64,000 nt of DNA, from assembly GCA_964577685.1 (NCBI GenBank), contig CAZNZT010000003.1, forward strand, positions 11,083-75,082, in the 5' to 3' direction. The translations under genes and the position numbers were made by a program. This document shows, one piece after another, positions 48,267-63,661 of this stretch. Numbering within the stretch: position 1 is the first letter of the stretch; each line of letters opens with the position of its first letter. The notes below the pieces were generated by a model. It worked only from the letters and a program-made list of their open reading frames with translations. It ran no database searches and had not been told where the DNA came from. This DNA comes from an uncultured Methanosarcinales archaeon. Its GTDB lineage: Archaea; Nanobdellota; Nanobdellia; Woesearchaeales; JACPBV01.

Positions 48267-48267
48267 A

Positions 48268-48756: not shown

Positions 48757-48767
48757 CAAAACATTTA

Positions 48768-48821
48768 TAAACTTAAGTTTACATCTATAAACTAAAATGG
48801 ACAATCATAAACTTAAGTTTA
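48768..48821. promoter_or_regulatory. two copies of the perfect 14-bp palindrome TAAACTTAAGTTTA, 40 bp apart
   Basis: 48768-48781 (upstream of ATG 48797) and 48808-48821 (inside codons 4-9 of the same gene). Flanks are also conserved (ataaacttaagtttaca). Confidence 0.5.
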
Positions 48822-49336: not shown

Positions 49337-49369
49337 TAAAAAATTTCTGAATATATTGAAGACGGAACG

Positions 49370-49771
49370 GTGAGGAAGGTTTCGTCAAATCCTGAGAGAG
49401 CTAAAAGTTTGGTAAAAGAAGCAGAGAGAAAACTTAAGGTTATATATAGACAAATTAAAGTGTTAGGCATTGATGACGAGCTTGCTAACGAGTATATACT
49501 TATGTGTTATGATTGTTTGATGTTTTTAGTAAGAGCCAAAATGCTTTTGAGTGGTTATTATGCAATTGGCAATCACGCCCATGAAGCAGAGGTTTCTTAT
49601 TTGAAGATTTTAAATTTTAATAAAGCTTATGTTCAATTTCTGGATAAAATGAGATATTACAGAAATGGAATGCTTTATTATGGGACAAAATTAGATAGGG
49701 AGTATGCAAAGAAGGTTATAAAATTTACAGAAAAGATATATTTTAAACTAAGAAAAATTCTTGGATTATAA
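49370..49771 (+). CDS. HEPN-domain protein (second copy)
   Basis: Helical. Motif MRYYRNGMLYYG parallels LRKIRNAINYYG of the first copy. Only a GTG start (49370) is available in frame after the upstream stop, so the start is uncertain. Confidence 0.6.
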   Translation: MRKVSSNPERAKSLVKEAERKLKVIYRQIKVLGIDDELANEYILMCYDCLMFLVRAKMLLSGYYAIGNHAHEAEVSYLKILNFNKAYVQFLDKMRYYRNGMLYYGTKLDREYAKKVIKFTEKIYFKLRKILGL

Positions 49772-49783
49772 AAATCCGATGAA

Positions 49784-50302
49784 ATGCCAAAAAAATCAAA
49801 AAAATACAAATTGACTAAAAAAGAGTTAGAAACAATCTATCTTGTTTTAAAAGGGATAGAAGAGGGTATTATTGATTATTTGGATAAGGAGTGGGAAGAA
49901 GATTATTATAATGATGATCTTATAGATTTGGAAGAAATCGAGAAGATTTCAAAGAAATTAAAAAAAATTTTGGAAGAAAAGAGTATAGAGAATTTAGAGA
50001 AAAGCGTTCTTCTAAGAAAATTTCATCCATTTAGGAATGACATAGACGAGGCAGTTTTCTCAAAACTTGAAAGAGCATTTGAAAACCTAAAAGAAGTCGA
50101 AGTAAAATATTTTTCATTATCTTCTGGAGATTTCACACAAAGAAAATTAAAAATTTATTATTTAAGCAGAAAGTATATGATAGCTTACTGTTATCTTAGA
50201 AAGGAAATCAGAAAGTTCAGAGTAAGCAGAATTAGGTCTGTTAAAATACTAAAAAAAAGATATACTATTCCAAAAAATTTCAATAAAAATAACTTTTTAT
50301 AA
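49784..50302 (+). CDS. WYL-domain protein without a recognisable HTH
   Basis: C-terminal RKLKIYYLSRKYMIAYCYLRKEIRKFRVSRIRSVKIL fits the WYL domain pattern. Acidic helical N-terminus. The stop lies 1 nt before the cas1 ATG. Confidence 0.6.
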   Translation: MPKKSKKYKLTKKELETIYLVLKGIEEGIIDYLDKEWEEDYYNDDLIDLEEIEKISKKLKKILEEKSIENLEKSVLLRKFHPFRNDIDEAVFSKLERAFENLKEVEVKYFSLSSGDFTQRKLKIYYLSRKYMIAYCYLRKEIRKFRVSRIRSVKILKKRYTIPKNFNKNNFL

Positions 50303-50303
50303 A

Positions 50304-51293
50304 ATGCCACAAAATTATTATATTCTAAAATCAGGAAAATTAAGAAGAAAAGGAAATACTCTTTATTTGAAAACAAATGAAGAAGCAAAGGCAATTCCAA
50401 TTAACAATGTAAACTCTTTATTTTGTTTTGGAGAAGTTGATGTTAACACAAAACTCCTTATATTTTTGTCGCAAAACAAAATACCTGTTCATTTTTTCAA
50501 TTACTATGGCTTTTATGTTGGAAGTTTTTATCCTAGAGAATATCTGAATTCTGGTTTATTGTTGGTCAAACAAGTTGAGCATTATCTTAATAATGAAAAA
50601 AGAAGTTTTATAGCAAGAGAGTTTGTAAGTGCAGCTTTGTTTAATATCCTTAAAAATATAGGGCATTATAAAAAACATGGTAAAGATGTTTCTGAGAACA
50701 TAGAGAAAATTAAAGAAAATCTTAGAAAACTGAAAGAAGTGAAAGAGAGGAGAGAATTGATGGGAATAGAGGGGGATAGCAGGAATATTTATTACCAAAC
50801 TTTTTCTGAAATCTTAAGGGGAGATTTTAACTTTGAAAAGAGAACAAGACAGCCACCAAAAAATATGCTAAATGCAATGATTAGTTTTGGAAACTCCTTG
50901 CTTTATACTGTTTGCCTAACTGAGATTTACCATACTCAGCTTAATCCTACTATTAGTTATTTGCATGAACCTTCAGAGAGGAGGTTTAGTCTCTCTTTGG
51001 ATTTGGCAGAAATTTTCAAACCAGTTATTGTAGATAAGGTTATTTTTAGGCTCATTAATAATCAAATGATAAATAAACAACACTTTGATAGGCAACTTAA
51101 CTTTTGTTATCTTAAAGACAATGGGAAAAGATTATTTTTACAGGAATTTGATTCTAGACTAAAAACAACAATCAAACATAAACATCTAAAGAGAAATGTT
51201 TCATATCAACATTTAATAAGAATTGAATGTTATAAATTAATAAAACACCTATTAGGAGATAAGGAATATAAGGCATTTAGGGTATGGTGGTAA
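50304..51293 (+). CDS. cas1: Cas1 integrase
   Basis: 329 aa. N-terminal YYILKSGKLRRKGNTLYL. C-terminal catalytic region LHEPSERRFSLSLDLAEIFKPVIVD. Confidence 0.9.
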   Translation: MPQNYYILKSGKLRRKGNTLYLKTNEEAKAIPINNVNSLFCFGEVDVNTKLLIFLSQNKIPVHFFNYYGFYVGSFYPREYLNSGLLLVKQVEHYLNNEKRSFIAREFVSAALFNILKNIGHYKKHGKDVSENIEKIKENLRKLKEVKERRELMGIEGDSRNIYYQTFSEILRGDFNFEKRTRQPPKNMLNAMISFGNSLLYTVCLTEIYHTQLNPTISYLHEPSERRFSLSLDLAEIFKPVIVDKVIFRLINNQMINKQHFDRQLNFCYLKDNGKRLFLQEFDSRLKTTIKHKHLKRNVSYQHLIRIECYKLIKHLLGDKEYKAFRVWW

Positions 51294-51294
51294 A

Positions 51295-51552
51295 ATGTAT
51301 ATAATAATTGTTTATGATGTTAATCAGAAAAGAGTTAGTAAATTTTGTAAATTTTTAAGGCAATATCTACATTGGATTCAGAATAGCGTGTTTGAAGGAG
51401 AGGTTTCTGAATCTCAATTTTTCTTTATAAAAGAAAAATTAAAGAAGATGATAAAAGAAGATGATTCAGTAATAATATTTGATATAGGTAAAAAGTGGTT
51501 AAGCAGAGAAATTCTTGGAAAAGAGAAAAATCCTGTTTCATCAATAATCTAA
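51295..51552 (+). CDS. cas2: Cas2
   Basis: 85 aa. MYIIIVYDV...IQNSVFEGEV, typical ferredoxin-fold Cas2. Confidence 0.85.
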   Translation: MYIIIVYDVNQKRVSKFCKFLRQYLHWIQNSVFEGEVSESQFFFIKEKLKKMIKEDDSVIIFDIGKKWLSREILGKEKNPVSSII

Positions 51553-51656
51553 CAAATCAAAGTCAGCCTTTATAAATAAAGTACAAGATTAAAACATGAC
51601 TTCCAAAGGACTTACAGAACCTCAAAATTTATATATTTCAGGACATCTGATATAGT
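51553..51656 (+). promoter_or_regulatory. CRISPR leader
   Basis: 104-bp AT-rich non-coding stretch between cas2 and the first repeat, with TATA-like tttataaata (about 51571) and tttatatattt (about 51628). Confidence 0.5.
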
Positions 51657-53487
51657 ATTCAAATAGAACTATAGTAGGATTGAAATTACGGATACAATGC
51701 CCTTATTGCCTGCAAGGTTACACATATTCAAATAGAACTATAGTAGGATTGAAATACTGTTACCTTTAGGAATATGCTACTTCCATAATTACATTCAAAT
51801 AGAACTATAGTAGGATTGAAATCCTGTTGTAGTTTGGTATCCATTTAGCTCAAGAAGTACATTCAAATAGAACTATAGTAGGATTGAAATAGAGTGAAAG
51901 AATTCCTTAAAGAAGAGCGAACAATTTATTCAAATAGAACTATAGTAGGATTGAAATAAAGACATACAAAACGCAGTAAATAACAGCGGATATTATTCAA
52001 ATAGAACTATAGTAGGATTGAAATTTCGTCTGGAATTGTGTATTTGTGTTCGCAATTAACATTCAAATAGAACTATAGTAGGATTGAAATGGACTAATTA
52101 GTCCTGCTATTGCTCCAGCAATTAGTATTCAAATAGAACTATAGTAGGATTGAAATATAAAATGCTGGTCTATAAGCTTCCTTTTTTCATCAATTCAAAT
52201 AGAACTATAGTAGGATTGAAATGGTAATGCTGATTGGGTGTTGTAATCTGCTACAGTTCATTCAAATAGAACTATAGTAGGATTGAAATGTACAGAGCAA
52301 GAAATGGGAAAGAGCAAACACACAAATTCAAATAGAACTATAGTAGGATTGAAATAGAGGATTTATTATAAAATTTATTATTTTTTTTATGCATTCAAAT
52401 AGAACTATAGTAGGATTGAAATATGGGCAGTTAAGGCTTACTTAGAAGAATTTACAAACATTCAAATAGAACTATAGTAGGATTGAAATCAGCAGAAGCA
52501 GTAAAGATATGTTCAAGTGCTTCGTCATTCAAATAGAACTATAGTAGGATTGAAATTACTAGAACCGTGGCGAGCATTCCGAGATGCAGCACAATTCAAA
52601 TAGAACTATAGTAGGATTGAAATGGTACTACAGCTAGCCAGACAAAAACCTTTTTCGCATTCAAATAGAACTATAGTAGGATTGAAATAAGTATGCGTAT
52701 ATATATTTTACTTCTAACTCCTCTGTATTCAAATAGAACTATAGTAGGATTGAAATAGGGCTACTCCATCGTAACCCTCTTTACTAACTATAAATTCAAA
52801 TAGAACTATAGTAGGATTGAAATGCTCTATTAAAGGGGGGTTTGTGTTCTCCCTGCTGTGATTCAAATAGAACTATAGTAGGATTGAAATATAGTGATGT
52901 CATCAGGAACTTCTGAATCATCATCTGATTCAAATAGAACTATAGTAGGATTGAAATAGAGAAAGAAAGAGAAAAGAAAGAGAAGAAGAAAAATTCAAAT
53001 AGAACTATAGTAGGATTGAAATAAGATTGAAAAGGGGTGATAAAATGTTAGTAATAGATTCAAATAGAACTATAGTAGGATTGAAATAAAACTATAAAAA
53101 TGTTTAGTTCAATTCAAAACCAAATTCAAATAGAACTATAGTAGGATTGAAATGAAGTCAAATCAATTTTTGCGAACTTAACATTGTAAATTCAAATAGA
53201 ACTATAGTAGGATTGAAATTGGGTCTCCTGTGAATGTTCCCAAAAACATATAATCAGATTCAAATAGAACTATAGTAGGATTGAAATCTATATCTCTCTG
53301 CCCACCATGTTTTTAATCTTATTATATTCAAATAGAACTATAGTAGGATTGAAATTGAAAAAGAAACAGAAGGATGGAAGATAATAAAGAACATTCAAAT
53401 AGAACTATAGTAGGATTGAAATGCAGAAGGCAGGATTTAACGAACGGGGATTTTTTAATTCAAATAGAACTATAGTAGGATTGAAAT
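51657..53487 (+). CRISPR. CRISPR array: 28 identical 30-nt repeats (attcaaatagaactatagtaggattgaaat), 27 spacers of 35-39 nt
   Basis: Counted by hand. Repeat starts: 51657, 51726, 51793, 51861, 51928, 51995, 52061, 52127, 52193, 52260, 52326, 52393, 52460, 52527, 52594, 52659, 52727, 52794, 52861, 52928, 52993, 53058, 53124, 53190, 53258, 53326, 53393, 53458. The repeat ends in ATTGAAAT (I-B-like 8-nt handle) and the leader is on the cas2 side, so I assign the plus orientation. Confidence 0.97.
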
Positions 53488-54865: not shown

Positions 54866-56218
54866 ATGGTCCTAGAAAAATTGGGTTCAAGCCTAAGAAA
54901 CACATTAAGTAGAATAGCAAAATCCCTATTTGTAGATGAAAAACTGATAAACGAACTAATCAAGGATATACAAAGAGCATTATTACAGGCTGATGTTAAT
55001 GTTAAGCTTGTTTTTGATTTAACCAATAAAATCAAAGAAAGGATAAAAAAAGAGGAAACACCAAAGGGATTAACAAAGAAGGAACACCTTATTAATATTG
55101 TTTATGAAGAACTTGTGAATTTCTTAGGAAAGGAGGCATACAGGATAGAAATAAGGGAAAGACCATTCAAAATTATGCTCGTTGGTTTGTTCGGCTCTGG
55201 AAAAACAACAACAGCAGGCAAACTAGCAAGATACTTCTCAAAAAGAGGATACAAGGTGGCTCTTGTAGGCTTAGATACTCATAGACCGGCAGCCATGGAG
55301 CAGATTGCCCAGATTGGTAAGCAAGCAAATGTTCCTGCTTATTTTGATAAAAAGGAAAGGGATGCTGTTAAGATATGGAACAGATTCAAGGATGAGTATA
55401 AAAAATATGATATCCTGATTATTGATACCGCTGGGAGAGATGCATTGTCTAAAGAGCTAATCCAAGAGATTGAAAAACTAAACAAGGAAATAAAGCCGAA
55501 TGAAAATCTTCTTGTTATTTCTGCAGACATTGGACAGGCAGCCCAAAAACAAGCACAGCAGTTCCATGAATCTTGTCATGTTACTGGTGTGATAGCAACA
55601 AAGATGGATGGCAGTGCTAAGGCGGGTGGTGCCTTAAGTGCATGTGCTGTAACCAAAGCACCTATAAAGTTTATTGGTGTGGGAGAGAAACTTGATGATT
55701 TGGAACAGTTTAATCCACCTGGTTTTGTTGGCAGGTTGCTTGGGATGGGTGATTTGGAGGCACTCTTGGAGAAGGCAAAGGAGGCAATAACAGAGGAAGA
55801 GGCAGAGGATTTAGGAAAACGCTTGCTTAAAGGGGAATTTACCCTGATTGATTTGTATGAACAGATGGAGGCAATGAGTAAGATGGGACCTCTTTCTAAG
55901 CTGATTGAGATGATTCCGGGATTCGGTCAATTAAAATTGCCCAAGGAACTATTACAGGTTCAAGAAGATAAGCTTAAGAAATGGAAATATGCTATACAAT
56001 CAATGACTAGGGAAGAGCTGGAAAATCCTGAGATTATTAATCTAGGTAGGATTGAGAGGATTTCAAAGGGTTCTGGTGTTCCAATATCTGACATTAGGCT
56101 GCTGATAAAACAGTATAGGCAGTCTAAGAAATTGATAAAGATGATGGGAGGGAAGGGAGATATAAACAAATTAATGAAAAGGTTTCAAGGCAGATTGCCT
56201 AAGGGCTTTTCAATCTAG
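54866..56218 (+). CDS. srp54: signal recognition particle protein SRP54
   Basis: GLFGSGKTTT, DTAGRD, TKMDGSAKAGGALS, and a Met-rich M domain (MEAMSKMGPLSKLIEMIPG). Confidence 0.95.
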   Translation: MVLEKLGSSLRNTLSRIAKSLFVDEKLINELIKDIQRALLQADVNVKLVFDLTNKIKERIKKEETPKGLTKKEHLINIVYEELVNFLGKEAYRIEIRERPFKIMLVGLFGSGKTTTAGKLARYFSKRGYKVALVGLDTHRPAAMEQIAQIGKQANVPAYFDKKERDAVKIWNRFKDEYKKYDILIIDTAGRDALSKELIQEIEKLNKEIKPNENLLVISADIGQAAQKQAQQFHESCHVTGVIATKMDGSAKAGGALSACAVTKAPIKFIGVGEKLDDLEQFNPPGFVGRLLGMGDLEALLEKAKEAITEEEAEDLGKRLLKGEFTLIDLYEQMEAMSKMGPLSKLIEMIPGFGQLKLPKELLQVQEDKLKKWKYAIQSMTREELENPEIINLGRIERISKGSGVPISDIRLLIKQYRQSKKLIKMMGGKGDINKLMKRFQGRLPKGFSI

Positions 56219-56784
56219 CTTTTTTGGTATCTGCCCATTAACTCTGCTTTTGCAATAGCATGCTTTTCAACTTCCCTGTAGAAATCTTCCTTGTTTTCTG
56301 CTTCAAGTTTTTCTACATCCAAGGCATATAGCTTAAAGAAGTATCTGTGCACTCCTGATGGAGGACATGGCCCTCCATAATCTTCTTTACCAAAGTCATT
56401 TATAACTTGCTTCCCAGGAACGCTATTCTGTGGAATTTCCCTTACCTCTGGTGGGATATCCTTTACTAGCCAATGTACCCATGTTCCCATTGGTGCATCT
56501 GGGTCATCAACAATCAAAGCAAAACTTTTTGTTCCCTCTGGAACATCCTCCCATTTTAGATGTGGGTTTATATCCTCTCCTTGGCAAGTGAATTTTCTTG
56601 GAATCATCTCTCCTTCTTTGAAATCATCACTTGTTAATTTCATGCTACCACCCCCTATTTGTTTTTCTTCTTTTATGGTTGTTGTTCTATGAATTTCTTT
56701 TTCAACAACCTCCTGTTTGATACAACCAATCAACATAGCAACTAAAAAAATTCCTAGGATTGAAATGATGTTTGTTCTTTTCAT
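56215..56784 (-). CDS. PEBP-family (YbhB/YbcL-type) protein with signal/lipobox
   Basis: LVAMLIGC lipobox-like signal. LIVDDPDAPMGTWVHW and YGGPCPPSGVHRYFFKLYALD are PEBP signatures. ATG at 56784 avoids overlap with the upstream gene. Confidence 0.75.
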   Translation of the reverse strand: MKRTNIISILGIFLVAMLIGCIKQEVVEKEIHRTTTIKEEKQIGGGSMKLTSDDFKEGEMIPRKFTCQGEDINPHLKWEDVPEGTKSFALIVDDPDAPMGTWVHWLVKDIPPEVREIPQNSVPGKQVINDFGKEDYGGPCPPSGVHRYFFKLYALDVEKLEAENKEDFYREVEKHAIAKAELMGRYQKS

Positions 56785-56830
56785 AATATAAAATGATAGG
56801 GGAGAATTCTTAATAAACTTTTCTAATCTC

Positions 56831-57946
56831 TTAGCAGTGTTCAATATATGTATACATATTCCCCTTGTAGTTTTTTAGAACTATCTTCTTGTCATCCCTT
56901 TCCACTACATAGTTTGGTAATAGAGGGATTTTTCCTCCTCCTCCGGGGGAATCTATAACAAAATGAGGAACAGCTAAGCCAGATGTCCAGCCCTGTATGG
57001 CTTTTATTATCTCAATCCCCTTTTCAACCTTTGTTCTGAAATGGTTTATCCCCTTTGTCATATCAGCTTGGTAGATGTAGTATGGTCTTACCCTAATCTC
57101 TAATAGTTTCTGCATTAGTTCTTTCATAACCTTGGGGTCGTCATTAACCCCTTTCAGTAAAACAGTCTGGCTACTTAATGGAATTCCTGCATCTGATAAC
57201 ATTTCACAAGCTTTAGCACTTAGTTCAGTGATTTCATCTGGATGCTCAAAGTGGACATTGATGTAAAGGGGATGATACTTTTTTAGCATTTCACACAGCT
57301 CTGGAGTTATTCTATGAGGTAAGGCACATGGTATTCTTGTGCCTATTCTTATAATCTTTACATGCGGTATCTTTCTTAGTTCTTTTAGAATCCATTCTAG
57401 ATATGCATCAGAAAGCAAAAGTGGATCTCCACCAGATAGCAAAACATCTCTGATTTCTTTGTGTTTTCTTATATATTCAATGCCTTGCATAATCTGTTTT
57501 TTTGTTATTCTTTTAAACGGATCCCCTACCTTTCTTTTTCTTGTACAGAACCTACAATACATTGCACATTGATTGCAAACAAGAAATAATACCCTGTCAG
57601 GATATCTGTGGGTTAGTCCAGGAACAGGCGAATCTCTCTCTTCGCATAATGGGTCTTCAAATCCTTCTGGATCTTCTAATTCTCTTATGTCAGGGATACA
57701 TTGCTTCCATATAGGATCATCTTTTTTCTTTATTAGACTTAGATAATATGGGTTGATTCTCATAGGATATCTTTTTATTACAGCCCTTATCTTTTCTTTG
57801 TCAATATTTCCTTTACAGATTAAATCTAACTGTTCTTCATTTACAACACTTTTTCCTAGTAACTCTTTCCATACAGAAATATTTTTTATTTCTTGAACAA
57901 CATTTTTTTTCAACAGGGTTTCATATTGTTGTTCTATCATTTGCAT
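56831..57946 (-). CDS. KamA-family radical-SAM aminomutase (lysine 2,3-aminomutase-like)
   Basis: CAMYCRFCTRKRK (CxxxCxxC) and LLSGGDPLLL. 371 aa, the short KamA/EpmB-like size class. Confidence 0.85.
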   Translation of the reverse strand: MQMIEQQYETLLKKNVVQEIKNISVWKELLGKSVVNEEQLDLICKGNIDKEKIRAVIKRYPMRINPYYLSLIKKKDDPIWKQCIPDIRELEDPEGFEDPLCEERDSPVPGLTHRYPDRVLFLVCNQCAMYCRFCTRKRKVGDPFKRITKKQIMQGIEYIRKHKEIRDVLLSGGDPLLLSDAYLEWILKELRKIPHVKIIRIGTRIPCALPHRITPELCEMLKKYHPLYINVHFEHPDEITELSAKACEMLSDAGIPLSSQTVLLKGVNDDPKVMKELMQKLLEIRVRPYYIYQADMTKGINHFRTKVEKGIEIIKAIQGWTSGLAVPHFVIDSPGGGGKIPLLPNYVVERDDKKIVLKNYKGNMYTYIEHC

Positions 57947-58204
57947 TCACTCTTTCGTTTTTATAGTATTATTATAGATTTGTTTTTTAGTAAAATAAAA
58001 GAAATCTTTTTCCTTTTCATCTATCATCTCTTTCCACCAATTTTTTTAGTTTTACCTCCTATTTTTTTATTATTTTTTTGAAATTACTTATATTTAAATC
58101 TTATTATTTTTTTAATTTCTCGTCTATAAATCTTAAAAAATTTTAAAGAATTTTGCAAAGTAAAGCAATAAAAAATTAAATTTTTTTTATTTAATCGGCG
58201 AGAA

Positions 58205-59587
58205 TTATAGTTTACATCTTGCATATCTGTCTTCAAATTTTTCTTTTTCTTTTGCTAAGATTAACCTCTTGTTTTTTATAACAACATATGGTGCAGTTTC
58301 TTTTAAAAAACGCCAAGCTCTTGAAAAGTTGTATGACCCCTGATTCAGTATTGCTAAGATATCTCCTCTTTTTGCTTTTCTTCCGTAATATGAGTAGCCC
58401 CATAAATCGTTTGGTGTGCATAAGGGACCATATACTATTTCCCTCCTTAATCTGAACGAAGGATTTGATAAATTAATTATTGGGGCGAATAGATACTCTG
58501 AAAAATCAGACCCACCTATTAAGTTAATCCCACCATCAACTATTATGCTATTCTTCTTTCTAGCAATAACCTTTACTAGGATGTGAGTTGAGTTTGTATT
58601 GATGTATCTACCGGGTTCAAAGAAGATTTTAATATCTTTTTTTAGAGTAAAGATATATCTCTTAAGGTATTTTGATATGTCTTTTGCAAACTTTTCCAAT
58701 GGGTCAACTTCGTCAATGTAGAACCTATATGGGTCAAAGTTAGCATCTTTGTTTGAGAAATCTCTTATCATCTCTATTAAAGAGAATTTGTGACTAAACT
58801 TTAATAATAACGCTGTATCTTTTTGGTAAAACCCACCACCTATGTCCAAGAATTCTATCTTTGATATATCTTCTTTTGAAAAATTATTTTTTAGATAAGA
58901 ACCAATCAGTTTAATATTTCTGCAATATCTTTCTGCTGTTTCATTCCATGAGGAATGGAAATGCAATCCAATAATTTTTATATTGTTCTTTTTGGCTTTT
59001 TTTATTGTTCCTCCTAAATCCTTTAAATCCACCCCAAACTTTGACCACTTTCTCATTATCTTTTTGTCTGTGTTTATCCTTATACTGGCTTTTATTCTTT
59101 TGTTTTTAGTCAGCTTTATTATTTTCTCTAACTCGTCTTGATTGTCAATATTTATTATCACTTTGCTTTTGTTTTTTATAGCTGCCTTTATTTCATTTAT
59201 AGTTTTGCCTGGACTTGTGAATATTATCTTCTTGAATTTCAACTTCAGAGCCAATTGTAACTCAAAAAGACTACCAACATCCGCGTTATATCCTTCCTTT
59301 TGTAGTGTTTTTATTAGGTATGGCAAATCATTTGATTTAAAGGCATAGAAAAATTCAGAGTTTGCTACATATTTTCTGAAAGTGTTGATAAAGAATATAG
59401 CATCTTTTTTTAGCTTTTTTTCATCAAGTATGTATAATGGGGTGTCAAAAGTTCTTGTTGCTTTAAGAAGAATTTTTTTCTTATTTGTTATATCTGCTAT
59501 ATGGTTCTTGTAATAGCTTCCGTCATCTGTTTTTATCTTTTCCTCCCATGCTTTTTTTATTATTTTTGATATTTCTCTCCATCTCAT
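58205..59587 (-). CDS. fold-III PLP-dependent decarboxylase (Orn/DAP/Arg decarboxylase family)
   Basis: PLP-lysine block FFYAFKSNDLPYLIKTL, LDIGGGF, and the catalytic Cys region YGPLCTPNDL. About 40-aa N-terminal extension. Confidence 0.75.
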   Translation of the reverse strand: MRWREISKIIKKAWEEKIKTDDGSYYKNHIADITNKKKILLKATRTFDTPLYILDEKKLKKDAIFFINTFRKYVANSEFFYAFKSNDLPYLIKTLQKEGYNADVGSLFELQLALKLKFKKIIFTSPGKTINEIKAAIKNKSKVIINIDNQDELEKIIKLTKNKRIKASIRINTDKKIMRKWSKFGVDLKDLGGTIKKAKKNNIKIIGLHFHSSWNETAERYCRNIKLIGSYLKNNFSKEDISKIEFLDIGGGFYQKDTALLLKFSHKFSLIEMIRDFSNKDANFDPYRFYIDEVDPLEKFAKDISKYLKRYIFTLKKDIKIFFEPGRYINTNSTHILVKVIARKKNSIIVDGGINLIGGSDFSEYLFAPIINLSNPSFRLRREIVYGPLCTPNDLWGYSYYGRKAKRGDILAILNQGSYNFSRAWRFLKETAPYVVIKNKRLILAKEKEKFEDRYARCKL

Positions 59588-60909
59588 TTGTTTAGTTCTT
59601 CTTTGTAGATTGATTTTACTTGTGTCTTTATTTTTTTTGGTATGGAAACTGCAGTATGTATCTTAAAAAATCTGTTGTAGAGTTCGTCTTCTCTTTCCTT
59701 TGCTTCTGCTAAGAAGTTTTCCTTGAATTTTTTTATTAGGTAGCCATTCTTTTTGTTCCTGTAAGCCAAATAGAATGCAAGTAATTGCTCATCCCTTACA
59801 GCTTTTGGCTTTTCATATATTCTAAATGGCTTATTAAAAAGAGGGTATAATCTTTTGTATTCTTTATTAAAAAAATTAATTTTGAAGTCTATAATCTTTG
59901 GATTTATGTTGTTTGCTACAAGATATAAGAAGGCTTTTGCACACATGGGGCAATTGTAACACCATCTACTTTTTTTATTCCCTATTTCCTGGGAACAGGA
60001 CATCTGATATTTTGCGATAGCAGGATATCTGTTAAAAAGAACTTTTATTTCTGCTATGTTATATAGAGGTTCTACAAGGCTACACAGTCTTATTTTGTTA
60101 TTGGTGAATCCTCTTAAGGATTTGCTTTGCTCTAGCATCCAGTTACTATTTTGTTCGTGTGATGGATATACATTGAATCCTTCTTTGTTGGTAAAGTAAT
60201 CATTAAAGTTCTGTTCATTCCCAAATATTATGTATTCAGATTTGTTGTATATTGCAAATGGAAGCAATATAGCCATATATGAGCTCATGGCATTTGTAGC
60301 TACAATCCCTTTTGAGTTTGTTTTGTTTATCCTTTTGTGAGTAGAAATATCGTCTATATAGTCATACACTATGCTTATCTTTTCTTTGAACTCTTTTTTA
60401 AATTTTTTTACTAACCTGAGTTTATGATATGCTTCAAGGTCCCAAAAATCTTGTACTAAGACTAGTTTGGGATTTAGATTTAGTTCTTTTGCAATAGCAT
60501 AAGATAATAGGCTGTCTTTGCCAAAGGAGATACTAACTATGCTAGAGCCTTCTGTGGAAATGTTTTTAATCTTCTTTGTATAGTTATACTTAAACCTAAT
60601 TTTTCTTTTTTTAAATTTTTCAATTAATTCTTTGGAAGAGATGTTGTCTTCTTCGGCTATTCTTGGGATGTCTAGTTCCATTCCTTTGTCAGCTAGTCTC
60701 CTCATATATGGAACAGAGAAATTGTAGTGTATTTCTTCTTCTAGGAACAATGAATATGGTGATGTTTTAAGGTAAATTATGTTTTCAGCTATAGTTTTTT
60801 TTGTTTCTTTACTGATGGATTCCCAAACAGCCCTTGGGTATTCAATTTTAAAGTTTTTTTGAAGATTTATAGAGAAGCCTGTTTTTAACAATCTGCTTTT
60901 TATTTCCAT
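59584..60909 (-). CDS. PP-loop (adenine nucleotide alpha-hydrolase-like) protein of unknown specificity
   Basis: SISFGKDSLLSY matches the SGGxDS PP-loop with one substitution. C-terminal RWCYNCPMC. The rest is unrecognised. Overlaps both neighbours (4 nt and 10 nt). Confidence 0.5.
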   Translation of the reverse strand: MEIKSRLLKTGFSINLQKNFKIEYPRAVWESISKETKKTIAENIIYLKTSPYSLFLEEEIHYNFSVPYMRRLADKGMELDIPRIAEEDNISSKELIEKFKKRKIRFKYNYTKKIKNISTEGSSIVSISFGKDSLLSYAIAKELNLNPKLVLVQDFWDLEAYHKLRLVKKFKKEFKEKISIVYDYIDDISTHKRINKTNSKGIVATNAMSSYMAILLPFAIYNKSEYIIFGNEQNFNDYFTNKEGFNVYPSHEQNSNWMLEQSKSLRGFTNNKIRLCSLVEPLYNIAEIKVLFNRYPAIAKYQMSCSQEIGNKKSRWCYNCPMCAKAFLYLVANNINPKIIDFKINFFNKEYKRLYPLFNKPFRIYEKPKAVRDEQLLAFYLAYRNKKNGYLIKKFKENFLAEAKEREDELYNRFFKIHTAVSIPKKIKTQVKSIYKEELNK

Positions 60910-61892
60910 CTTGATAAGGCACTTTCTATTATTTTTGCTATTAGCTCTTTGTATGTGTATCCTTTTGCTTTTGCCATTGCTGCTAGTCCAGCATCTTCTG
61001 AGATGTCAGGATTCGGATTGATTTCTAGGACATATGGGTTGTTTTCTTTGTCTACCCTAAAATCAACCCTATAATAATCCTCACACATCATAAGCCTTGA
61101 AGCCTTTAATGCTAAATTGATTAGTTTTCTTTTTAGTTTCTCATCAATCTTCGCTGGGCAGCTTCTTTTTGTCTCCTTGTAGTCAATGGTATTCTCTTTC
61201 CACTTTGCATTATAGTTAACGATTCTTGGCTTATCTTTTGGTAGTCCATCAAAAGTTATCTCAGAAATAGGTAATACCTCATTTCCTACAATCCCTACAT
61301 TGAATTCCCTGCCTTCAATAAACTCCTCTACTAGTGCTGGTTGTTTGTATTTGGCTATGATGTCACTTATTTTTTTTCTTAGCTCTTTTTCATCCTTTAC
61401 AACAGAGTCGTCTCTTATCCCAATAGATGCATCCTCACGAACTGGTTTCACTATTAGTGGAAATCTTAGGCCTTTCTTGATATTTTCTTTGCTATTCTCA
61501 AAGACTTGGAATTTTGGAGTTGGTATTTTGTGGTACATCAGTATTTTTTTGGCTCTTGCTTTGTTTAAGCACATCGCTAAGGTTAAGTAACCTGAGCCAG
61601 TATAAGGTATTCCAAGAATATCAAGTATTGCGGGTAAGTGTGGTTCTAGGGTGGGGTCTGAAAAAAAACCATCATCACACAAGTTGAATACCATATCAAT
61701 ATTTTTTTTATTGTTTCGTAAAGTTTCAAATAGGTCTAGGTCTACATAATATTGCAATACTTCATGTCCTAGTTCTTTTAACACATTCATGACAGAAAAA
61801 GCATCATCATTTGTATCTCTACCTTCCCAATCAATAGGTTCGTAGCTTTTTGAATCGTCTTCTCTTCTCGTAAATACAACTGCTATTTTCAT
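60900..61892 (-). CDS. Ddl-like ATP-grasp ligase (copy 2)
   Basis: KIAVVF..., LGIPYTGSGYLTLAMCLNKARAKKIL, IVKPVREDASIGI, VEEFIEGREFNV, VLEINPNPDI. ATG at 61892 preferred over the TTG at 61901. Confidence 0.75.
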   Translation of the reverse strand: MKIAVVFTRREDDSKSYEPIDWEGRDTNDDAFSVMNVLKELGHEVLQYYVDLDLFETLRNNKKNIDMVFNLCDDGFFSDPTLEPHLPAILDILGIPYTGSGYLTLAMCLNKARAKKILMYHKIPTPKFQVFENSKENIKKGLRFPLIVKPVREDASIGIRDDSVVKDEKELRKKISDIIAKYKQPALVEEFIEGREFNVGIVGNEVLPISEITFDGLPKDKPRIVNYNAKWKENTIDYKETKRSCPAKIDEKLKRKLINLALKASRLMMCEDYYRVDFRVDKENNPYVLEINPNPDISEDAGLAAMAKAKGYTYKELIAKIIESALSRWK

Positions 61893-61901
61893 AAAAACCA
61901 A

Positions 61902-62936
61902 TCATCTACCTATTGCTAGCTTTGTTTTGATTTTCCATCTCTTTAAACCAGCGTTTAATATCTCTCCAACAAGCTTTTCATAACTCCAGCCAAGAGTATA
62001 TGCTGCTCTGGGCATTCTTGAGTTTTCTTTTGGGTCTTTAATCAAGCCAACTGGAGTATTAACCTCTAGGACATTTGGAATTTTGTTTTTGTCTAGCCTT
62101 ATATCTATTCTTGCCCAGTCTTTACAGTCAAGAACCCTGAATGTTTTTAGGGACACTTCTTTTATTTTTTCTTCAAGGTCTCTATCAATTTCTGCTGGAC
62201 ATATTAGCGGGTCTGCTTCCTTATTGTTTTTTGGGTTATCATATATCCACTTTGCTTCATAGGAATCAAAATTGTTTAGATGGTCTGGTAAATGGTGGAA
62301 CCTAATCTCTACTATTGGCAGTATAATGGGATTTTCGTTTCCTATTATAGATACTGTAAATTCTTCTCCATCTAGAAACTCTTCAACAATAGCTTCTTGC
62401 TTGTATCTTTTTATTATTCTCCTGACAACATTTCTTAATTCATTTTCATTGTTCACTAGGTTCTTGTTGTTTAATCCCTTTGATGAACCCTCAGCTATCG
62501 CCTTTACAAGAACTGGAAATTCTAACAATAGGTTTTCGTTTTCATTCTTCATAATCTGGAACCTTGGAGTGGGTATATTATAGTATCCTAAAATCTCTTT
62601 TGTTCTTGCTTTGTTTAGGATTATTCCAGATGTAAGTGGATCCGGACCAAGGTATGGTATCTTTAACATCTCACAGAAAATGGGTATTTGTGATTCTCTG
62701 CTTCTTCCTTCTATTCCTTCTGCAAAATTAAATACAAAATCAATCTTTTCTCTATTTTTTTTTAGGTTAATATAAGCTTCTTCGTTTGCTTCAATTAGTA
62801 TGCATTTATGTCCATTTGCTTCTATTGCTTCTTTTAGATTATTTATTGTTTCTATGGAGTCATATTCTATATGAAGGTCTTCTTCGTTTTTTTTGATTAA
62901 AGAAGGTTTCAGATTAAAAGTCAGTGCTATGTTCAT
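61902..62936 (-). CDS. Ddl-like ATP-grasp ligase (copy 1)
   Basis: LKIPYLGPDPLTSGIILNKARTKEIL, LVKAIAEGSSKGL, VEEFLDGEEFTV, VLEVNTPVGL. Confidence 0.75.
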   Translation of the reverse strand: MNIALTFNLKPSLIKKNEEDLHIEYDSIETINNLKEAIEANGHKCILIEANEEAYINLKKNREKIDFVFNFAEGIEGRSRESQIPIFCEMLKIPYLGPDPLTSGIILNKARTKEILGYYNIPTPRFQIMKNENENLLLEFPVLVKAIAEGSSKGLNNKNLVNNENELRNVVRRIIKRYKQEAIVEEFLDGEEFTVSIIGNENPIILPIVEIRFHHLPDHLNNFDSYEAKWIYDNPKNNKEADPLICPAEIDRDLEEKIKEVSLKTFRVLDCKDWARIDIRLDKNKIPNVLEVNTPVGLIKDPKENSRMPRAAYTLGWSYEKLVGEILNAGLKRWKIKTKLAIGR

Positions 62937-63100
62937 GAGATAATCGCATTAAAAAATTAGAAAACTTATATTTAAAGATTTCTTTTTTGTTTGTAAACTT
63001 GTTGAATAATTTTTGATTAAATTAATTGGTTTTTTTATTTTTATTTTAAATCAAAACCAAATCAAAAAGTTTATATACAATAGTTATTAGTAAACTGAGT

Positions 63101-63661
63101 ATGGCTGAAGGATTGTGGGATGATTTTGCAGAGCCTGTTGTTTATATTAGGTATAAGGGAGTTTGGGATATGCAGGATTTGTATGAATCTATAGCCGAGT
63201 GGTTTAGAAGGAGGAAGTATAAATTTCATGAGAGGGTTTACAAACATAAACATCCTAGTCCGTTTGGAGTGGAGAGGCAATATATCTGGCAGGCAGAGAG
63301 ATATGAAACTGAGTATGTTAAAATCCATTATGATATCTATATACATACTTACGATGCACATGATGTAGAAGTAGCTATGCCTGATGGTTCTAGAAAAACC
63401 TTTACAAAGGGAAGGATATGGATTGAGATAAAGGCTAATCTTGTAAGTGATTGGGAAAAGAGATTTGATGAGAGTCTTTTTTTAACTCACTTAAAGAGCT
63501 TTTATAACAAATACATCATAAAGAAGAATTTTACAATGGGTTGGGGACCAAAATTAAGGTATGAGATGTATGATTTGCATGCAATGATAAAAAGAAAACT
63601 GAAGATGGAGTCAGAAGAGTATGAGCATAGATACTTTTCTGGTGTCTATAGGAAATATTAA
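63101..63661 (+). CDS. hypothetical protein (186 aa)
   Basis: Clean ORF with ordinary composition, divergent from the ATP-grasp cluster. No family recognised. Weakly similar in layout to the next ORF. Confidence 0.5.
   Translation: MAEGLWDDFAEPVVYIRYKGVWDMQDLYESIAEWFRRRKYKFHERVYKHKHPSPFGVERQYIWQAERYETEYVKIHYDIYIHTYDAHDVEVAMPDGSRKTFTKGRIWIEIKANLVSDWEKRFDESLFLTHLKSFYNKYIIKKNFTMGWGPKLRYEMYDLHAMIKRKLKMESEEYEHRYFSGVYRKY

What the first reader, a model, noticed from the sequence alone, without database searches (positions are those of the whole stretch)
56215..62936. Uncharacterised biosynthetic cluster: two Ddl-like ATP-grasp ligases, PP-loop protein, fold-III PLP decarboxylase, KamA-family aminomutase, PEBP protein
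Six co-directional genes. The first four are translationally coupled: a 9-nt gap (a direct abutment if the TTG at 61901 is the real start), a 10-nt overlap and a 4-nt overlap. A 258-bp AT-rich gap follows, then the KamA-like gene and a secreted PEBP gene. The chemistry implied is beta-amino acid formation by a 2,3-aminomutase (beta-lysine, beta-glutamate and beta-arginine are known products of the KamA family). It also implies decarboxylation of a basic or dicarboxylic amino acid, an adenylating PP-loop step and two successive ATP-grasp amide-bond formations. That adds up to a non-ribosomal, ligase-built small peptide, polyamine conjugate or osmolyte. I know of no described pathway with this gene set. 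It is not the ablAB N-epsilon-acetyl-beta-lysine pair, not EpmAB, not Mur-type (pseudo)murein ligases and not LysX/ArgX. Its presence in an otherwise biosynthetically sparse-looking genome makes it stand out.
Basis: inference. Interest (0 to 1): 0.75.

Follow-up and report, generated by a model that had tools for sequence, protein, structure and literature searches.

The report
Conserved β-lysine ligase gene cluster
A tiny symbiotic archaeon carries a conserved, undescribed set of five enzyme genes that most likely builds a small β-lysine-containing peptide-like molecule without the ribosome. Versions of the same enzyme kit recur across several major groups of uncultured microbes.

Summary
Six co-directional minus-strand genes lie at 56215-62936 with exactly the stated overlaps and the 258-bp gap. 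All six family calls hold.

Two refinements:
- The "PP-loop protein" (G3) has a QueC-like PP-loop core and is a full-length, remote homolog of MurL, the ATP-dependent, AMP-releasing peptide L→D epimerase.
- KamA has the lysine-specific active site.

The adjacency is not chance:
- G1-G2-G3-G4-KamA is co-linear in about eight other Nanoarchaeota/Woesearchaeota genomes.
- In four genomes KamA is fused to a G1-type ligase.
- 65 of 80 G3 loci keep a Ddl-like ATP-grasp within 3 kb. These come from DPANN, CPR bacteria, Bathyarchaeia and an Asgard archaeon.
- Relatives add PanD (β-alanine), a third ATP-grasp and SET methyltransferases.

PEBP is not conserved and is probably not part of the unit. KamA has its own conserved promoter, operator-like motif and leader uORF.

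No characterised pathway matches. AblAB, EpmAB, Ddl, LysA, PylBC, MurD2/MurL and defence systems were tested.

Best reading: a ligase-built, β-lysine-containing pseudopeptide. G3 adenylates a terminal carboxylate (epimerisation or amidation) and G4 decarboxylates a conjugated amino acid. The product is unknown.

The parts
62969..62976 (-). Archaeal TATA box (TTTAAATA) of the G1-G4 operon. It ends 32 nt upstream of the G1 ATG, which implies a very short 5' UTR.
   Evidence: Sequence read. It sits in the same TTTAAATATAAG context as the kamA TATA box. Function is inferred from the archaeal promoter consensus.
61902..62936 (-). G1: Ddl-like ATP-grasp ligase (344 aa), inferred to be the β-lysine-using ligase.
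   Evidence: PF07478 at 2.4e-35. PRK01372 scores 172.5 bits, below the 243 cutoff. The ATP/Mg residues of E. coli DdlB are kept, but Y216→W, L282→R and there is a 4-aa insertion. The ATP-grasp domain fused to KamA in L020, L025 and L027 is G1-type: 45-49% identity to G1 against 34-40% to G2.
60900..61901 (-). G2: second Ddl-like ATP-grasp ligase (333 aa; alternative ATG start at 61892).
   Evidence: PF07478 at 2.8e-36. PRK01372 scores 186.6 bits, below 243. Catalytic K215, R255, D257, E270 and N272 are kept. Y216→W, S281→A and L282→G. G2-type is the C-terminal domain of the 807-aa double ATP-grasp next to G3 in CPR bacteria.
59584..60909 (-). G3: MurL-like enzyme with a QueC-fold PP-loop ATP pyrophosphatase core (441 aa), flanked by family-specific N- and C-terminal domains.
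   Evidence: No Pfam hit. NCBIfam MurL NF041275 at E = 1.8e-9 over residues 102-431, matching model positions 117-443 of 447; 28 of 32 family members hit it. Invariant S128-x-G-K-D-S133 and C305, C317, C320, C323. AF2 model pLDDT 95. Foldseek to QueC 3bl5 gives target-normalised TM 0.71. Family size is 173 clusters at E ≤ 1e-30.
58205..59587 (-). G4: fold-III PLP decarboxylase (460 aa). It is not an orthodox LysA or ODC.
   Evidence: PF02784 at 1.8e-34. lysA TIGR01048 scores 155 bits, below 298. Best solved relatives are DAPDC 2p3e, N-citrylornithine decarboxylase FslC 7kh2 (full length) and BtrK 2j66. The PLP-Lys, HxH, GGG, EPGR and catalytic Cys motifs are conserved in 20 orthologs. The specificity position after the Cys is variable.
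57947..58204 (-). kamA promoter and leader: an oligo-T stretch after the G4 stop; the operator-like motif AGACGAGAAA (58116-58125); a TATA box TTTAAATA (58091-58098); an SD-like GGTGG (58034-58038); and a 26-codon uORF (58027-57947) whose TGA abuts the kamA ATG.
   Evidence: Sequence. The TATA box, the CGACGAGAAA-like motif (1-2 copies), the GGTGA-type SD and an 18-31-aa uORF are conserved in L004-L009, L007 and L016. The motif-plus-TATA combination occurs only upstream of kamA in those loci. There is no Rfam hit and no consensus RNA fold.
56831..57946 (-). KamA: lysine 2,3-aminomutase-type radical SAM/PLP enzyme (371 aa, C-terminally short), the β-lysine source.
   Evidence: AblA TIGR03820 scores 510.5 bits (cutoff 525.4). 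The KamA family model TIGR00238 scores 318, above 199. The match to C. subterminale LAM 2A5H is 416 bits, with the CxxxCxxC motif, the D293 and D330 equivalents (lysine ε-NH3+ binding) and PLP-Lys337 conserved. It is the most conserved gene of the cluster, at 64-83% identity.
56215..56844 (-). PEBP/YbhB-family protein with an N-terminal hydrophobic segment and an LIGC lipobox-like motif. It is adjacent but probably not part of the functional unit.
   Evidence: PF01161 at 4e-44; TIGR00481 scores 133.9, above 57.75. Among the other genomes it follows KamA only in L005. In L004-L006 the SRP54 gene follows KamA directly.

Best explanation
The locus is one functional biosynthetic module, transcribed from two promoters. 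It assembles a small, probably cationic, β-lysine-containing pseudopeptide with stand-alone ligases.

Proposed steps:
1. KamA converts L-lysine to β-lysine. This is a strong inference from active-site conservation.
2. G1, a Ddl-derived ATP-grasp ligase, forms an amide bond that involves β-lysine. This is inferred from KamA::G1 gene fusions.
3. G2, a second Ddl-derived ligase shared with CPR bacteria, forms a second amide bond.
4. G3, a MurL-like PP-loop enzyme, adenylates a terminal carboxylate of the intermediate. The adenylation itself is well supported by the fold, the motif and MurL's AMP release. The outcome is inferred: either L→D epimerisation of the C-terminal residue, as in MurL ('ligate, then epimerise', so no racemase is needed), or conversion of the carboxylate to an amide.
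5. G4 decarboxylates an α-amino-acid moiety whose side chain is already conjugated, as FslC and BtrK do. This leaves a terminal amine.

kamA is regulated separately through its own promoter, operator-like motif and leader uORF, so β-lysine supply may be the controlled step. The physiological role is unknown. A compatible solute, a polyamine-like cation or a host-interaction metabolite are all possible.
For: - Coupled gene layout.
- The same order and overlaps in L004-L009, L016 and L023.
- KamA::G1 fusions in L020, L025 and L027, and a split version in L080.
- A minimal cluster in L025: KamA::G1, SET, G4, G3.
- G3 plus ATP-grasp adjacency in 58-65 of 80 loci spanning DPANN, CPR, Bathyarchaeia, Asgard and Omnitrophota.
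- G4 within 8 kb of G3 in 20 loci, including 11 CPR loci.
- KamA lysine-binding residues are conserved.
- G3: PP-loop motif, QueC fold and MurL homology.
- MurL needs ATP and Mg2+ and releases AMP (PMC5808125).
- G4's nearest solved relatives act on conjugated or distally substituted amino acids.
- Relatives add a second β-amino-acid source, PanD (TIGR00223, 121.8 bits against a cutoff of 106), a third LAL-like ATP-grasp and SET methyltransferases. That fits a variable small-molecule scaffold.
- In Bathyarchaeia, G3 + ligase sits among L-D-dipeptide and D-amino-acid enzymes: M19 dipeptidase, MR_MLE, Amidohydro_3 and alanine racemase. This favours the epimerase reading.
Against: - No product is known and no enzyme of this cluster has been assayed.
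- kamA has its own promoter and could serve another purpose.
- The G3 + ligase core exists without KamA in CPR and Bathyarchaeia, so β-lysine is not intrinsic to the core chemistry.
- G4 is missing from several otherwise complete DPANN clusters (L007, L023, L020, L027).
- The MurL relationship is remote: 36.6 bits against an equivalog cutoff of 700.
- A class-I GATase near G3 in 9 Bathyarchaeia loci fits amidation as well as epimerisation.
- No transporter or obvious acceptor is conserved.
- The order of the steps is entirely inferred.
Confidence: 0.55

Rival explanations
1. Cell-envelope peptide synthesis. The genes build or remodel a peptidoglycan- or pseudomurein-like stem peptide or cross-bridge that contains a D-residue. 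Ddl-like ligases add the residues, the MurL-like enzyme epimerises, and the LysA-like enzyme acts on a DAP/Lys residue.
For: All three core families have their archetypes in murein synthesis: Ddl, MurL and LysA. In CPR loci L026 and L043 the G3 cluster follows murG, ddl and Mur-ligase genes, and Mur ligases lie within 8 kb in 5 CPR loci. G2 weakly hits the pseudomurein model Ddl_archaea (55 bits).
Against: The host is a DPANN archaeon. No Mur-type ligase, glycosyltransferase, MraY-like gene or lipid-carrier gene is in or next to the DPANN clusters. G1 and G2 fail the Ddl and Ddl_archaea cutoffs and have altered substrate residues. β-Lysine and PanD-derived β-alanine are not known wall components. 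CPR genomes are small, so proximity to dcw genes can be coincidental.
Confidence: 0.12
2. Two unrelated units that merely sit together. kamA (with or without PEBP) would make β-lysine as an osmolyte precursor or for lysine catabolism. G1-G4 would be a separate operon with unrelated chemistry.
For: There is a 258-bp gap with an independent TATA box, an operator-like motif and a leader uORF for kamA. CPR and Bathyarchaeia clusters lack KamA. KamA scores closest to AblA, the osmolyte enzyme.
Against: KamA is fused in frame to a G1-type ligase in three MAGs from different studies, and split in a fourth. kamA follows the ligase/G3/G4 genes in 9 DPANN loci, even where other genes such as PanD or a third ligase are inserted. 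No AblB-type acetyltransferase or KamDE is present.
Confidence: 0.1
3. Post-translational modification of a protein. One example would be β-lysylation or peptide tagging of a translation factor or ribosomal protein, in the manner of EpmAB, RimK or TTL. G3 would adenylate a protein C-terminus and SET enzymes would methylate a lysine.
For: KamA relatives (EpmB) feed β-lysine to EF-P. G2 weakly hits RimK and TTL models. QueC-like Cap9 modifies a protein (Foldseek hit 9nto). SET-domain genes occur in 6-7 related clusters.
Against: A fold-III PLP decarboxylase needs a free α-amino acid moiety, which is awkward on a protein. EpmB scores 240 bits, below the 369 cutoff, and no EpmA is present. No candidate target gene is conserved in the neighbourhoods. 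PanD and extra LAL-type ligases point to small-molecule building blocks.
Confidence: 0.08
4. Salvage or catabolism of D-amino-acid-containing peptides rather than biosynthesis.
For: Bathyarchaeia G3 loci are surrounded by dipeptidases (M19, M24), an Amidohydro_3, an MR_MLE epimerase, alanine racemase and GGCT.
Against: ATP-grasp ligases and a PP-loop enzyme consume ATP to make bonds or activate carboxylates. The window cluster contains two precursor-forming enzymes (KamA and G4) and no hydrolase.
Confidence: 0.05

Closest known systems
MurD2/MurL 'ligate L-Glu, then epimerise' route of peptidoglycan synthesis (Xanthomonas oryzae; PMC5808125, PMC8788868)
   Same: G3 is homologous to MurL over essentially its whole length (28 of 32 family members). 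It is always paired with an amide-forming ligase encoded next to it. MurL uses ATP and Mg2+ and releases AMP, which fits the PP-loop fold found here for the family.
   Different: The similarity is remote (36.6 bits against a cutoff of 700). The partner is a Ddl-type ATP-grasp ligase, not a Mur ligase. There is no UDP-MurNAc context and the host is an archaeon. Epimerase activity is untested.
PylB/PylC of pyrrolysine biosynthesis (from my own knowledge of the pathway)
   Same: The logic is the same. A radical-SAM enzyme rearranges lysine into a non-α amino acid, and a Ddl-like ATP-grasp ligase couples that product to another amine (lysine Nε in the Pyl pathway). Here the pairing appears as KamA::G1 fusions.
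   Different: There is no detectable homology. PylC is absent from G1's PDB hits even at E ≤ 1. KamA belongs to the LAM family, not the PylB family. There is no PylD.
AblA/AblB Nε-acetyl-β-lysine osmolyte pathway of methanogens
   Same: KamA scores best against AblA (510.5 bits) and has the lysine-specific residues. β-Lysine is derivatised at an amine or carboxyl group to give a compatible-solute-like compound.
   Different: The score is just under the AblA cutoff of 525.4. There is no AblB GNAT in the window. Derivatisation would be by ATP-grasp ligation rather than acetylation.
Ligase plus fold-III decarboxylase pairs acting on conjugated amino acids: FslA/FslC (rhizoferrin) and BtrJ/BtrK (butirosin side chain)
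   Same: After DAPDC, G4's best solved relatives are FslC (full-length alignment, 2e-25) and BtrK (2e-20). In both systems an amino acid is first ligated through its side chain and then α-decarboxylated. BtrJ is an ATP-grasp enzyme.
   Different: G4 is well below the FslC model cutoff (108 bits against 500). There is no NIS synthetase, citrate chemistry or acyl carrier protein here.
[quoted passage not shown]
   Same: G1 and G2 have the full Ddl fold. They keep the ATP/Mg2+ and phosphoryl-transfer residues K144, K215, R255, D257, E270 and N272.
   Different: They are below the family cutoffs (172.5 and 186.6 bits against 243). Y216→W in both. L282→R in G1; S281→A and L282→G in G2. The N-terminal E15 motif is not alignable.
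NAGGN dipeptide-osmolyte synthesis (Ngg GNAT/ATP-grasp plus AsnO PP-loop amidotransferase; recalled from memory, not read here)
   Same: It combines an ATP-grasp ligase, a GNAT and a PP-loop enzyme that acts on a dipeptide's C-terminal carboxylate. This resembles the Bathyarchaeia G3 + ligase + GNAT trio.
   Different: G3 gives no asparagine-synthetase-type hit. There is no GNAT in the window. This is an analogy only.

Membership tests
D-Ala-D-Ala ligase (NCBIfam PRK01372 / TIGR01205) | Whole-protein HMM score at or above the curated cutoff | tested here: not met
   G1 scores 172.5 and G2 186.6 bits against a cutoff of 243. On TIGR01205 they score 143.6 and 161.4 against 245.65.
D-Ala-D-Ala ligase | ATP-grasp catalytic residues (E. 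coli DdlB K144, K215, R255, D257, E270, N272) | tested here: met
   Conserved in G1 (alignment to 1iov/2dln) and in G2 (alignment to 8evv).
D-Ala-D-Ala ligase | D-Ala site residues (E15 motif, Y216, S281/L282) | tested here: not met
   Y216→W in both proteins. L282→R plus a 4-aa insertion in G1. S281→A and L282→G in G2. The E15 region lies outside all alignments.
[quoted passage not shown] | Equivalog-level HMM score | tested here: not met
   36.6 bits against a cutoff of 700. It is nevertheless the only NCBIfam hit, and 28 of 32 family members hit it.
MurL | Same length and full-length architecture | tested here: met
   G3 residues 102-431 align to model positions 117-443 of 447. G3 is 441 aa.
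MurL | Encoded next to, and working with, a MurD2-type Mur ligase on a UDP-MurNAc peptide | tested here: not met
   The neighbours are Ddl-type ATP-grasp ligases. There is no Mur ligase in the DPANN clusters.
MurL | ATP/Mg2+-dependent, AMP-releasing, unidirectional L→D epimerisation of a peptide C-terminal residue | not testable with these tools
   This is a biochemical property (PMC5808125). Only the capacity to adenylate is inferred from the fold.
PP-loop ATP pyrophosphatase (QueC-like) | SGGxDS-type PP-loop motif | tested here: met
   S128-F-G130-K-D-S133. The S, G and S positions are invariant and K and D are at least 90% conserved in 32 sequences.
PP-loop ATP pyrophosphatase (QueC-like) | Rossmann-like PP-loop fold with a Cys cluster | tested here: met
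   AF2 model pLDDT 95. Foldseek to QueC 3bl5: E = 6e-4, target-normalised TM 0.71. Also Cap9, YcfA, TtuA and TilS. C305, C317, C320 and C323 are invariant. Metal binding is inferred by analogy.
QueC proper (TIGR00364) | HMM match and a size of about 220 aa | tested here: not met
   Only 1 of 32 family members gives a weak hit (1.4e-3). G3 has extra N- and C-terminal domains of about 110 aa each.
Diaminopimelate decarboxylase LysA (TIGR01048) | Equivalog HMM score | tested here: not met
   155.3 bits against a cutoff of 297.9, and matched in two pieces.
Fold-III PLP decarboxylase | PLP-Lys, HxH, GGG, EPGR and catalytic Cys motifs | tested here: met
   Present in G4 and conserved across all 20 aligned proteins (G4 plus 19 orthologs). 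PF02784 at 1.8e-34.
Lysine 2,3-aminomutase (KamA/AblA) | KamA-family HMM, CxxxCxxC, PLP-Lys and the two Asp residues binding lysine ε-NH3+ | tested here: met
   TIGR00238 scores 318, above 199. The CAMYCRFC motif is present. The D293, D330 and K337 equivalents are conserved against 2A5H. The AblA equivalog score of 510.5 is just under its 525.4 cutoff.
AblA/AblB Nε-acetyl-β-lysine system | Adjacent AblB GNAT acetyltransferase | tested here: not met
   There is no GNAT among the six genes or their flanks.
EpmA/EpmB EF-P β-lysylation | EpmB equivalog score and an EpmA partner | tested here: not met
   EpmB TIGR03821 scores 240.1 against 369.3. There is no LysRS-like gene nearby.
PylB/PylC | Sequence homology of the ligase to PylC | tested here: not met
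   No PylC chain appears among the 52 PDB sequences matched by G1 at E ≤ 1.
Known anti-phage defence systems (PADLOC) | Any component model hit | tested here: not met
   The only hit is a marginal generic radical-SAM match of KamA to pVip (3.8e-4).
PEBP / YbhB | Family HMM | tested here: met
   TIGR00481 scores 133.9, above 57.75. PF01161 at 4e-44.

The most novel reading that the evidence does not exclude
DPANN archaea, CPR bacteria and Bathyarchaeia share a previously unrecognised ribosome- and NRPS-independent assembly line. In it, Ddl-derived ATP-grasp ligases are paired with a MurL-like PP-loop enzyme that epimerises (or caps) each newly added C-terminal residue. In the DPANN version this would make a protease-resistant, polycationic β-lysyl (± β-alanyl) D-residue pseudopeptide ending in a decarboxylated amine. 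An example would be an N-(β-lysyl)-diamine-type 'pseudo-polyamine' serving as a polyamine or osmolyte surrogate, or as a host-interaction molecule. Its supply would be controlled through a metabolite-sensing leader peptide upstream of kamA.
Probability: 0.2. Interest if true: 0.85.

Novelty: new variant of a known kind. Interest (0 to 1): 0.66.

Why it matters
- 'D-alanine-D-alanine ligase' genes are annotated by the thousand in archaea that have no murein. This G1 family alone has 3,293 proteins at E ≤ 1e-20, and no function has been assigned to them.
- This locus gives them a testable context: a β-lysine supplier fused to the ligase, a MurL-like adenylating enzyme and a conjugate-type decarboxylase.
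- It also extends the MurL family to archaea and CPR bacteria, with ATP-grasp partners. MurL has so far been a single-reaction curiosity 'without known domains', and the family is shown here to have a QueC-type PP-loop core.
- DPANN and CPR organisms have minimal genomes. A conserved 5-7-gene pathway in them is therefore likely to make something important for their symbiotic lifestyle.
- The enzymes could also be useful biocatalysts for β-amino-acid and D-amino-acid amide bonds.

Tried and rejected
1. Mapping to known pathways. AblAB, EpmAB, Ddl/Van, pseudomurein Ddl_archaea, LysA, FslC, PylBC and QueC all fail curated cutoffs or lack their partner genes.
2. Defence-system reading. I considered this because of the Cap9/QueC-like fold and the neighbouring CRISPR locus. 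There are no PADLOC hits.
3. Sequence search of G3 against the PDB. There were no hits at E ≤ 1; only the fold search was informative.
4. Riboswitch or structured leader upstream of kamA. There is no Rfam match at E ≤ 1 and no consensus structure from RNAalifold. The alignment is poor, so this is not a strong negative.
5. A regulon for the AGACGAGAAA motif in the window. There were 2 matches against 0.77 expected, which is not significant. The G1 promoter lacks the motif.
6. The bacterial σ70 promoter and terminator scan was at background and is irrelevant for an archaeon.
7. Literature searches for the gene set found nothing describing it. The term combinations were MurL + ATP-grasp, QueC-like + ATP-grasp, aminomutase + ATP-grasp + archaea, amidoligase neighbourhoods, and Woesearchaeota + Ddl.
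8. 'DPANN lack polyamine synthesis, so this is a surrogate'. This is not supported as a generalisation. PMC10407285 documents SpeD-derived Arg/Orn decarboxylases and homospermidine genes in DPANN and CPR.
9. I could not obtain a MurL sequence to compare conserved residues directly.

Full report
**1. Observation**

- G1 61902-62936 (344 aa).
- G2 60900-61901 (333 aa from a TTG that abuts the G1 stop; the first ATG, at 61892, would leave a 9-nt gap).
- G3 59584-60909 (441 aa; 10-nt overlap with G2).
- G4 58205-59587 (460 aa; 4-nt overlap with G3).
- A 258-bp gap of 18% GC.
- KamA 56831-57946 (371 aa).
- PEBP 56215-56844.

GC content across the cluster is 29-35%, against a window average of about 33%, so it does not stand out. 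The source is an 81.7-kb metagenomic contig. The closest protein homologs come from Nanoarchaeota and Woesearchaeota MAGs, so this is a DPANN archaeon.

**2. What each gene is**

*G1 and G2.* Both are full-length Ddl-fold ATP-grasp ligases (PF07478, 2e-35 and 3e-36). Both score below the curated Ddl cutoffs: 172.5 and 186.6 bits against 243. Residue mapping onto E. coli DdlB and P. aeruginosa DdlA shows that the ATP/Mg2+ and phosphoryl-transfer residues are kept, so they should be active ligases. The D-Ala-site residues are changed. Y216→W in both. G1 has L282→R plus a 4-residue insertion. G2 has S281→A and L282→G. The E15 motif is not alignable. They are not D-Ala-D-Ala ligases.

*G3.* It has no Pfam domain. 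Its only NCBIfam hit is MurL (NF041275), at E = 1.8e-9. The match covers residues 102-431 of G3 and positions 117-443 of the 447-position model. 28 of 32 diverse family members hit MurL, the best at 3e-12. An alignment of 32 homologs has an invariant S-x-G-K-D-S PP-loop motif and four invariant cysteines. An AlphaFold model (pLDDT 95) has a core that superposes on QueC (3bl5, target-normalised TM 0.71) and on other PP-loop enzymes: Cap9, YcfA, TtuA, TilS and NAD synthetase. Family-specific domains of about 110 aa flank the core on each side.

[quoted passage not shown] A PP-loop fold for this superfamily explains the AMP release.

*G4.* It is a fold-III PLP decarboxylase and is far below the LysA cutoff (155 bits against 298). 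Its best solved relatives are DAP decarboxylase, N-citrylornithine decarboxylase FslC (full-length alignment) and BtrK, which decarboxylates γ-glutamyl-ACP. All of these are enzymes whose substrate carries a substituted distal end. The catalytic motifs are conserved in 20 orthologs. The residue after the catalytic Cys, which fixes specificity in ODC and DAPDC, varies between loci as T, D, K, A, L or M.

*KamA.* It matches the C. subterminale lysine 2,3-aminomutase structure at 416 bits. The CxxxCxxC motif, the PLP lysine and both aspartates that bind the lysine ε-ammonium are conserved. It scores highest against AblA (510.5 bits), ahead of the glutamate and arginine aminomutase models. β-Lysine is therefore the expected product.

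*PEBP.* It is a YbhB-family protein with a lipobox-like N-terminus.

**3. Is the adjacency meaningful?**

I scanned one genome per GTDB species with a profile of G3. This gave 243 relatives, and the best 80 loci were fetched. I then searched their ORFs with the six window proteins. Four architectures emerge.

- **(A) Nanoarchaeota/Woesearchaeota** (L004-L009, L016, L023). The order is G1-G2-G3-(third ATP-grasp)-G4-(PanD)-KamA, with overlapping stops and starts as in the window. KamA is the most conserved gene, at 64-83% identity.
- **(A') Other Woesearchaeota** (L020, L025, L027, and split in L080). KamA is fused in frame to an ATP-grasp domain (Radical_SAM + LAM_C + Dala_Dala_lig_C in one 694-703-aa protein). 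That domain is G1-type (45-49% identity to G1 against 34-40% to G2). L025 is a minimal cluster: KamA::G1, a SET-domain gene, G4, G3.
- **(B) CPR bacteria** (12 loci). G3 is followed by an 807-aa double ATP-grasp with an N-terminal LAL-type domain and a C-terminal G2-type domain. Eight loci then have another ATP-grasp, and 11 have a G4 ortholog within 8 kb. The DPANN 'third ATP-grasp' is distantly homologous to the CPR LAL domain (E 1e-8 to 1e-16).
- **(C) Bathyarchaeia, an Asgard MAG and a Krumholzibacteria MAG.** A divergent ThrC-like PLP enzyme precedes G3, a G1-like ligase, a GNAT and a GGCT. Nearby lie M19 and M24 peptidases, an Amidohydro_3, an MR_MLE-type epimerase, alanine racemase and a class-I GATase.

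Overall, an ATP-grasp lies within 3 kb of G3 in 65 of 80 loci and on the same strand within 350 nt in 58. G4 lies within 8 kb in 20 loci, and KamA in 14. It is not met. PEBP, by contrast, follows KamA only in L005 among the other genomes, so I exclude it from the unit.

**4. Extra clues from relatives**

- L004 and L016 carry a bona fide PanD between G4 and KamA (TIGR00223, 121.8 bits against a cutoff of 106). This is a second enzyme that makes a β-amino acid.
- Six to seven clusters carry a small SET-domain methyltransferase.
- 'Solo' G3 genes in three archaeal MAGs sit beside an AdoMet_dc-type pyruvoyl decarboxylase. That family is known to include Arg and Orn decarboxylases in DPANN and CPR (PMC10407285).

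So G3 and its ligases keep company with three unrelated kinds of amino-acid decarboxylase and two β-amino-acid-forming enzymes. This points to a small molecule built from de-carboxylated or β-shifted amino acids, that is, one with a high amine content.

**5. Transcription and regulation**

The G1 start is preceded by TTTAAATA (62969-62976), 32 nt upstream. After the G4 stop there is an oligo-T stretch. The 258-bp gap then contains an AGACGAGAAA motif (58116-58125), a second TTTAAATA (58091-58098), a GGTGG ribosome-binding site and a 26-codon uORF (58027-57947). The uORF's TGA directly abuts the kamA ATG.

The motif (often duplicated), the TATA box, the SD and a short uORF of 18-31 codons recur in L004-L009, L007 and L016. 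The uORF stop abuts or overlaps the kamA start in L004, L006 and L007. The motif-TATA pair occurs only upstream of kamA in those loci.

There is no Rfam family and no consensus RNA fold. kamA is therefore very likely a separately controlled transcription unit with a leader-peptide-type element.

**6. Mechanism**

Shown here:
- gene layout;
- family and fold assignments;
- conserved synteny;
- the fusions.

Inferred, with my confidence in each step:
- KamA makes β-lysine (strong).
- G1 ligates β-lysine (moderate; rests on the Rosetta-stone fusions).
- G2 makes a second amide bond (moderate).
- G3 adenylates a carboxylate of the intermediate (fairly strong).
- G4 decarboxylates a side-chain-conjugated α-amino-acid moiety (moderate; by analogy with FslC and BtrK).

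For the outcome of the G3 reaction, I rate L→D epimerisation of a C-terminal residue at about 0.45. The support is that MurL is the only characterised homolog and that the Bathyarchaeia contexts are rich in D-amino-acid enzymes. I rate amide formation or carboxylate capping at about 0.3. The support is the QueC chemistry, the nearby GATase and the 'remove negative charge' logic. The remainder goes to other outcomes.

A 'ligate, then epimerise' module would let organisms with minimal genomes install D-residues without racemases. The exact substrates, the order of steps and the physiological role remain unknown.

**7. Comparison with known systems and novelty**

The closest systems are these:
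- MurD2/MurL, which is homologous for G3 and shares the ligase-plus-epimerase logic, but uses a Mur ligase and a UDP-MurNAc substrate.
- PylB/PylC, which has the same mutase-plus-Ddl-like-ligase logic but no homology.
- AblAB, which has the same β-lysine source but no acetyltransferase here.
- FslA/FslC and BtrJ/BtrK, which pair a ligase with a fold-III decarboxylase acting on conjugates.

None is a match for membership (see the table). No PADLOC defence model hits. Literature searches found no description of this gene set. The searched library is open-access only, so a description elsewhere cannot be excluded.

I classify the locus as a new variant of a known kind. It is stand-alone-ligase peptide biosynthesis with a MurL-type partner, in a new combination and a new phylogenetic setting, and the product is unknown.

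**8. Verdict**

The finding is real and the cluster is conserved. Interest is 0.66. The cluster gives a concrete, testable function for the many 'Ddl' genes of wall-less archaea and broadens the MurL family. The chemistry is still inferred.

Noticed in passing
window 57947-58204 (minus strand); also L004 14490-14730, L005 12800-12995, L006 12870-13064, L009 12945-13160, L007 3600-3791, L016 9620-9864: There is a conserved regulatory region upstream of kamA. It has 1-2 copies of a (T)CGACGAGAAA-like motif just upstream of a TTTAAATA box, then a GGTGA-type SD and a short uORF of 18-31 codons. In the window the uORF encodes MIDEKEKDFFYFTKKQIYNNTIKTKE. Its stop abuts or overlaps the kamA start in the window and in L004, L006 and L007. 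This may be a leader-peptide or arrest-peptide control of β-lysine synthesis. There is no Rfam match and no consensus fold.
   Followed up: partly
window 51657-53487: A CRISPR array of 28 copies of the 30-nt repeat ATTCAAATAGAACTATAGTAGGATTGAAAT with spacers of about 36-38 nt. It lies directly downstream of cas1 and cas2.
   Followed up: partly
window ~38000-52000: A low-GC block (24-28% against about 33-37% elsewhere). From about 41.9 kb it holds a type I CRISPR-Cas locus: Cas7, Cas3 at 45687-48266, Cas4, an HTH/nucleotidyltransferase gene, a WYL-domain gene, Cas1 at 50304-51293, and Cas2. The composition suggests horizontal acquisition.
   Followed up: partly
L004 14000-14338; L016 9198-9530: A bona fide PanD (aspartate 1-decarboxylase, which makes β-alanine) is inserted between G4 and kamA in two related Nanoarchaeota clusters. 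Both of those clusters also carry a third, LAL-like ATP-grasp. Neither gene is present in the window.
   Followed up: yes
L015 4159-4575, L025 8164-8568 (also L029, L043, L020, L081): Small SET-domain methyltransferase genes (134-138 aa) are embedded in both CPR and Woesearchaeota versions of the cluster. This is unexpected for a small-molecule pathway. It suggests N-methylation of a lysine-type amine or, alternatively, a protein target.
   Followed up: partly
L038 11330-11722 (also L061, L072): 'Solo' G3 genes in three archaeal MAGs lie next to an AdoMet_dc-family pyruvoyl decarboxylase and several glycosyltransferases. This is another link between G3 and a decarboxylase.
   Followed up: no
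L013 15071-16933, L028 15148-17022: A conserved protein of about 620 aa with no Pfam or NCBIfam match sits between the ATP-grasp genes and G4 in several CPR clusters. It contains a HELAH-like motif, so it may be a metallopeptidase. Its function is unknown.
   Followed up: no
window 63101-63661 (+) and beyond the window end (L001 5330-7427): Four consecutive small genes (146-186 aa) without any Pfam match are transcribed divergently from G1. They are not found next to the cluster in the other genomes examined.
   Followed up: no
L005, L007, L011, L016, L023, L028, L030, L046 (record titles): Several MAG records that carry DPANN- or CPR-type versions of the cluster are titled 'uncultured Methanosarcinales archaeon' or 'uncultured Gammaproteobacteria bacterium'. 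The gene content looks like Nanoarchaeota and Patescibacteria, so these titles are probably taxonomic mislabels.
   Followed up: no
window 31210-31376 and 31988-36175: Two adjacent tRNA genes lie on the plus strand at 31210-31282 and 31289-31376. Next to them is a very large ORF (1395 aa, minus strand) that was not examined.
   Followed up: no
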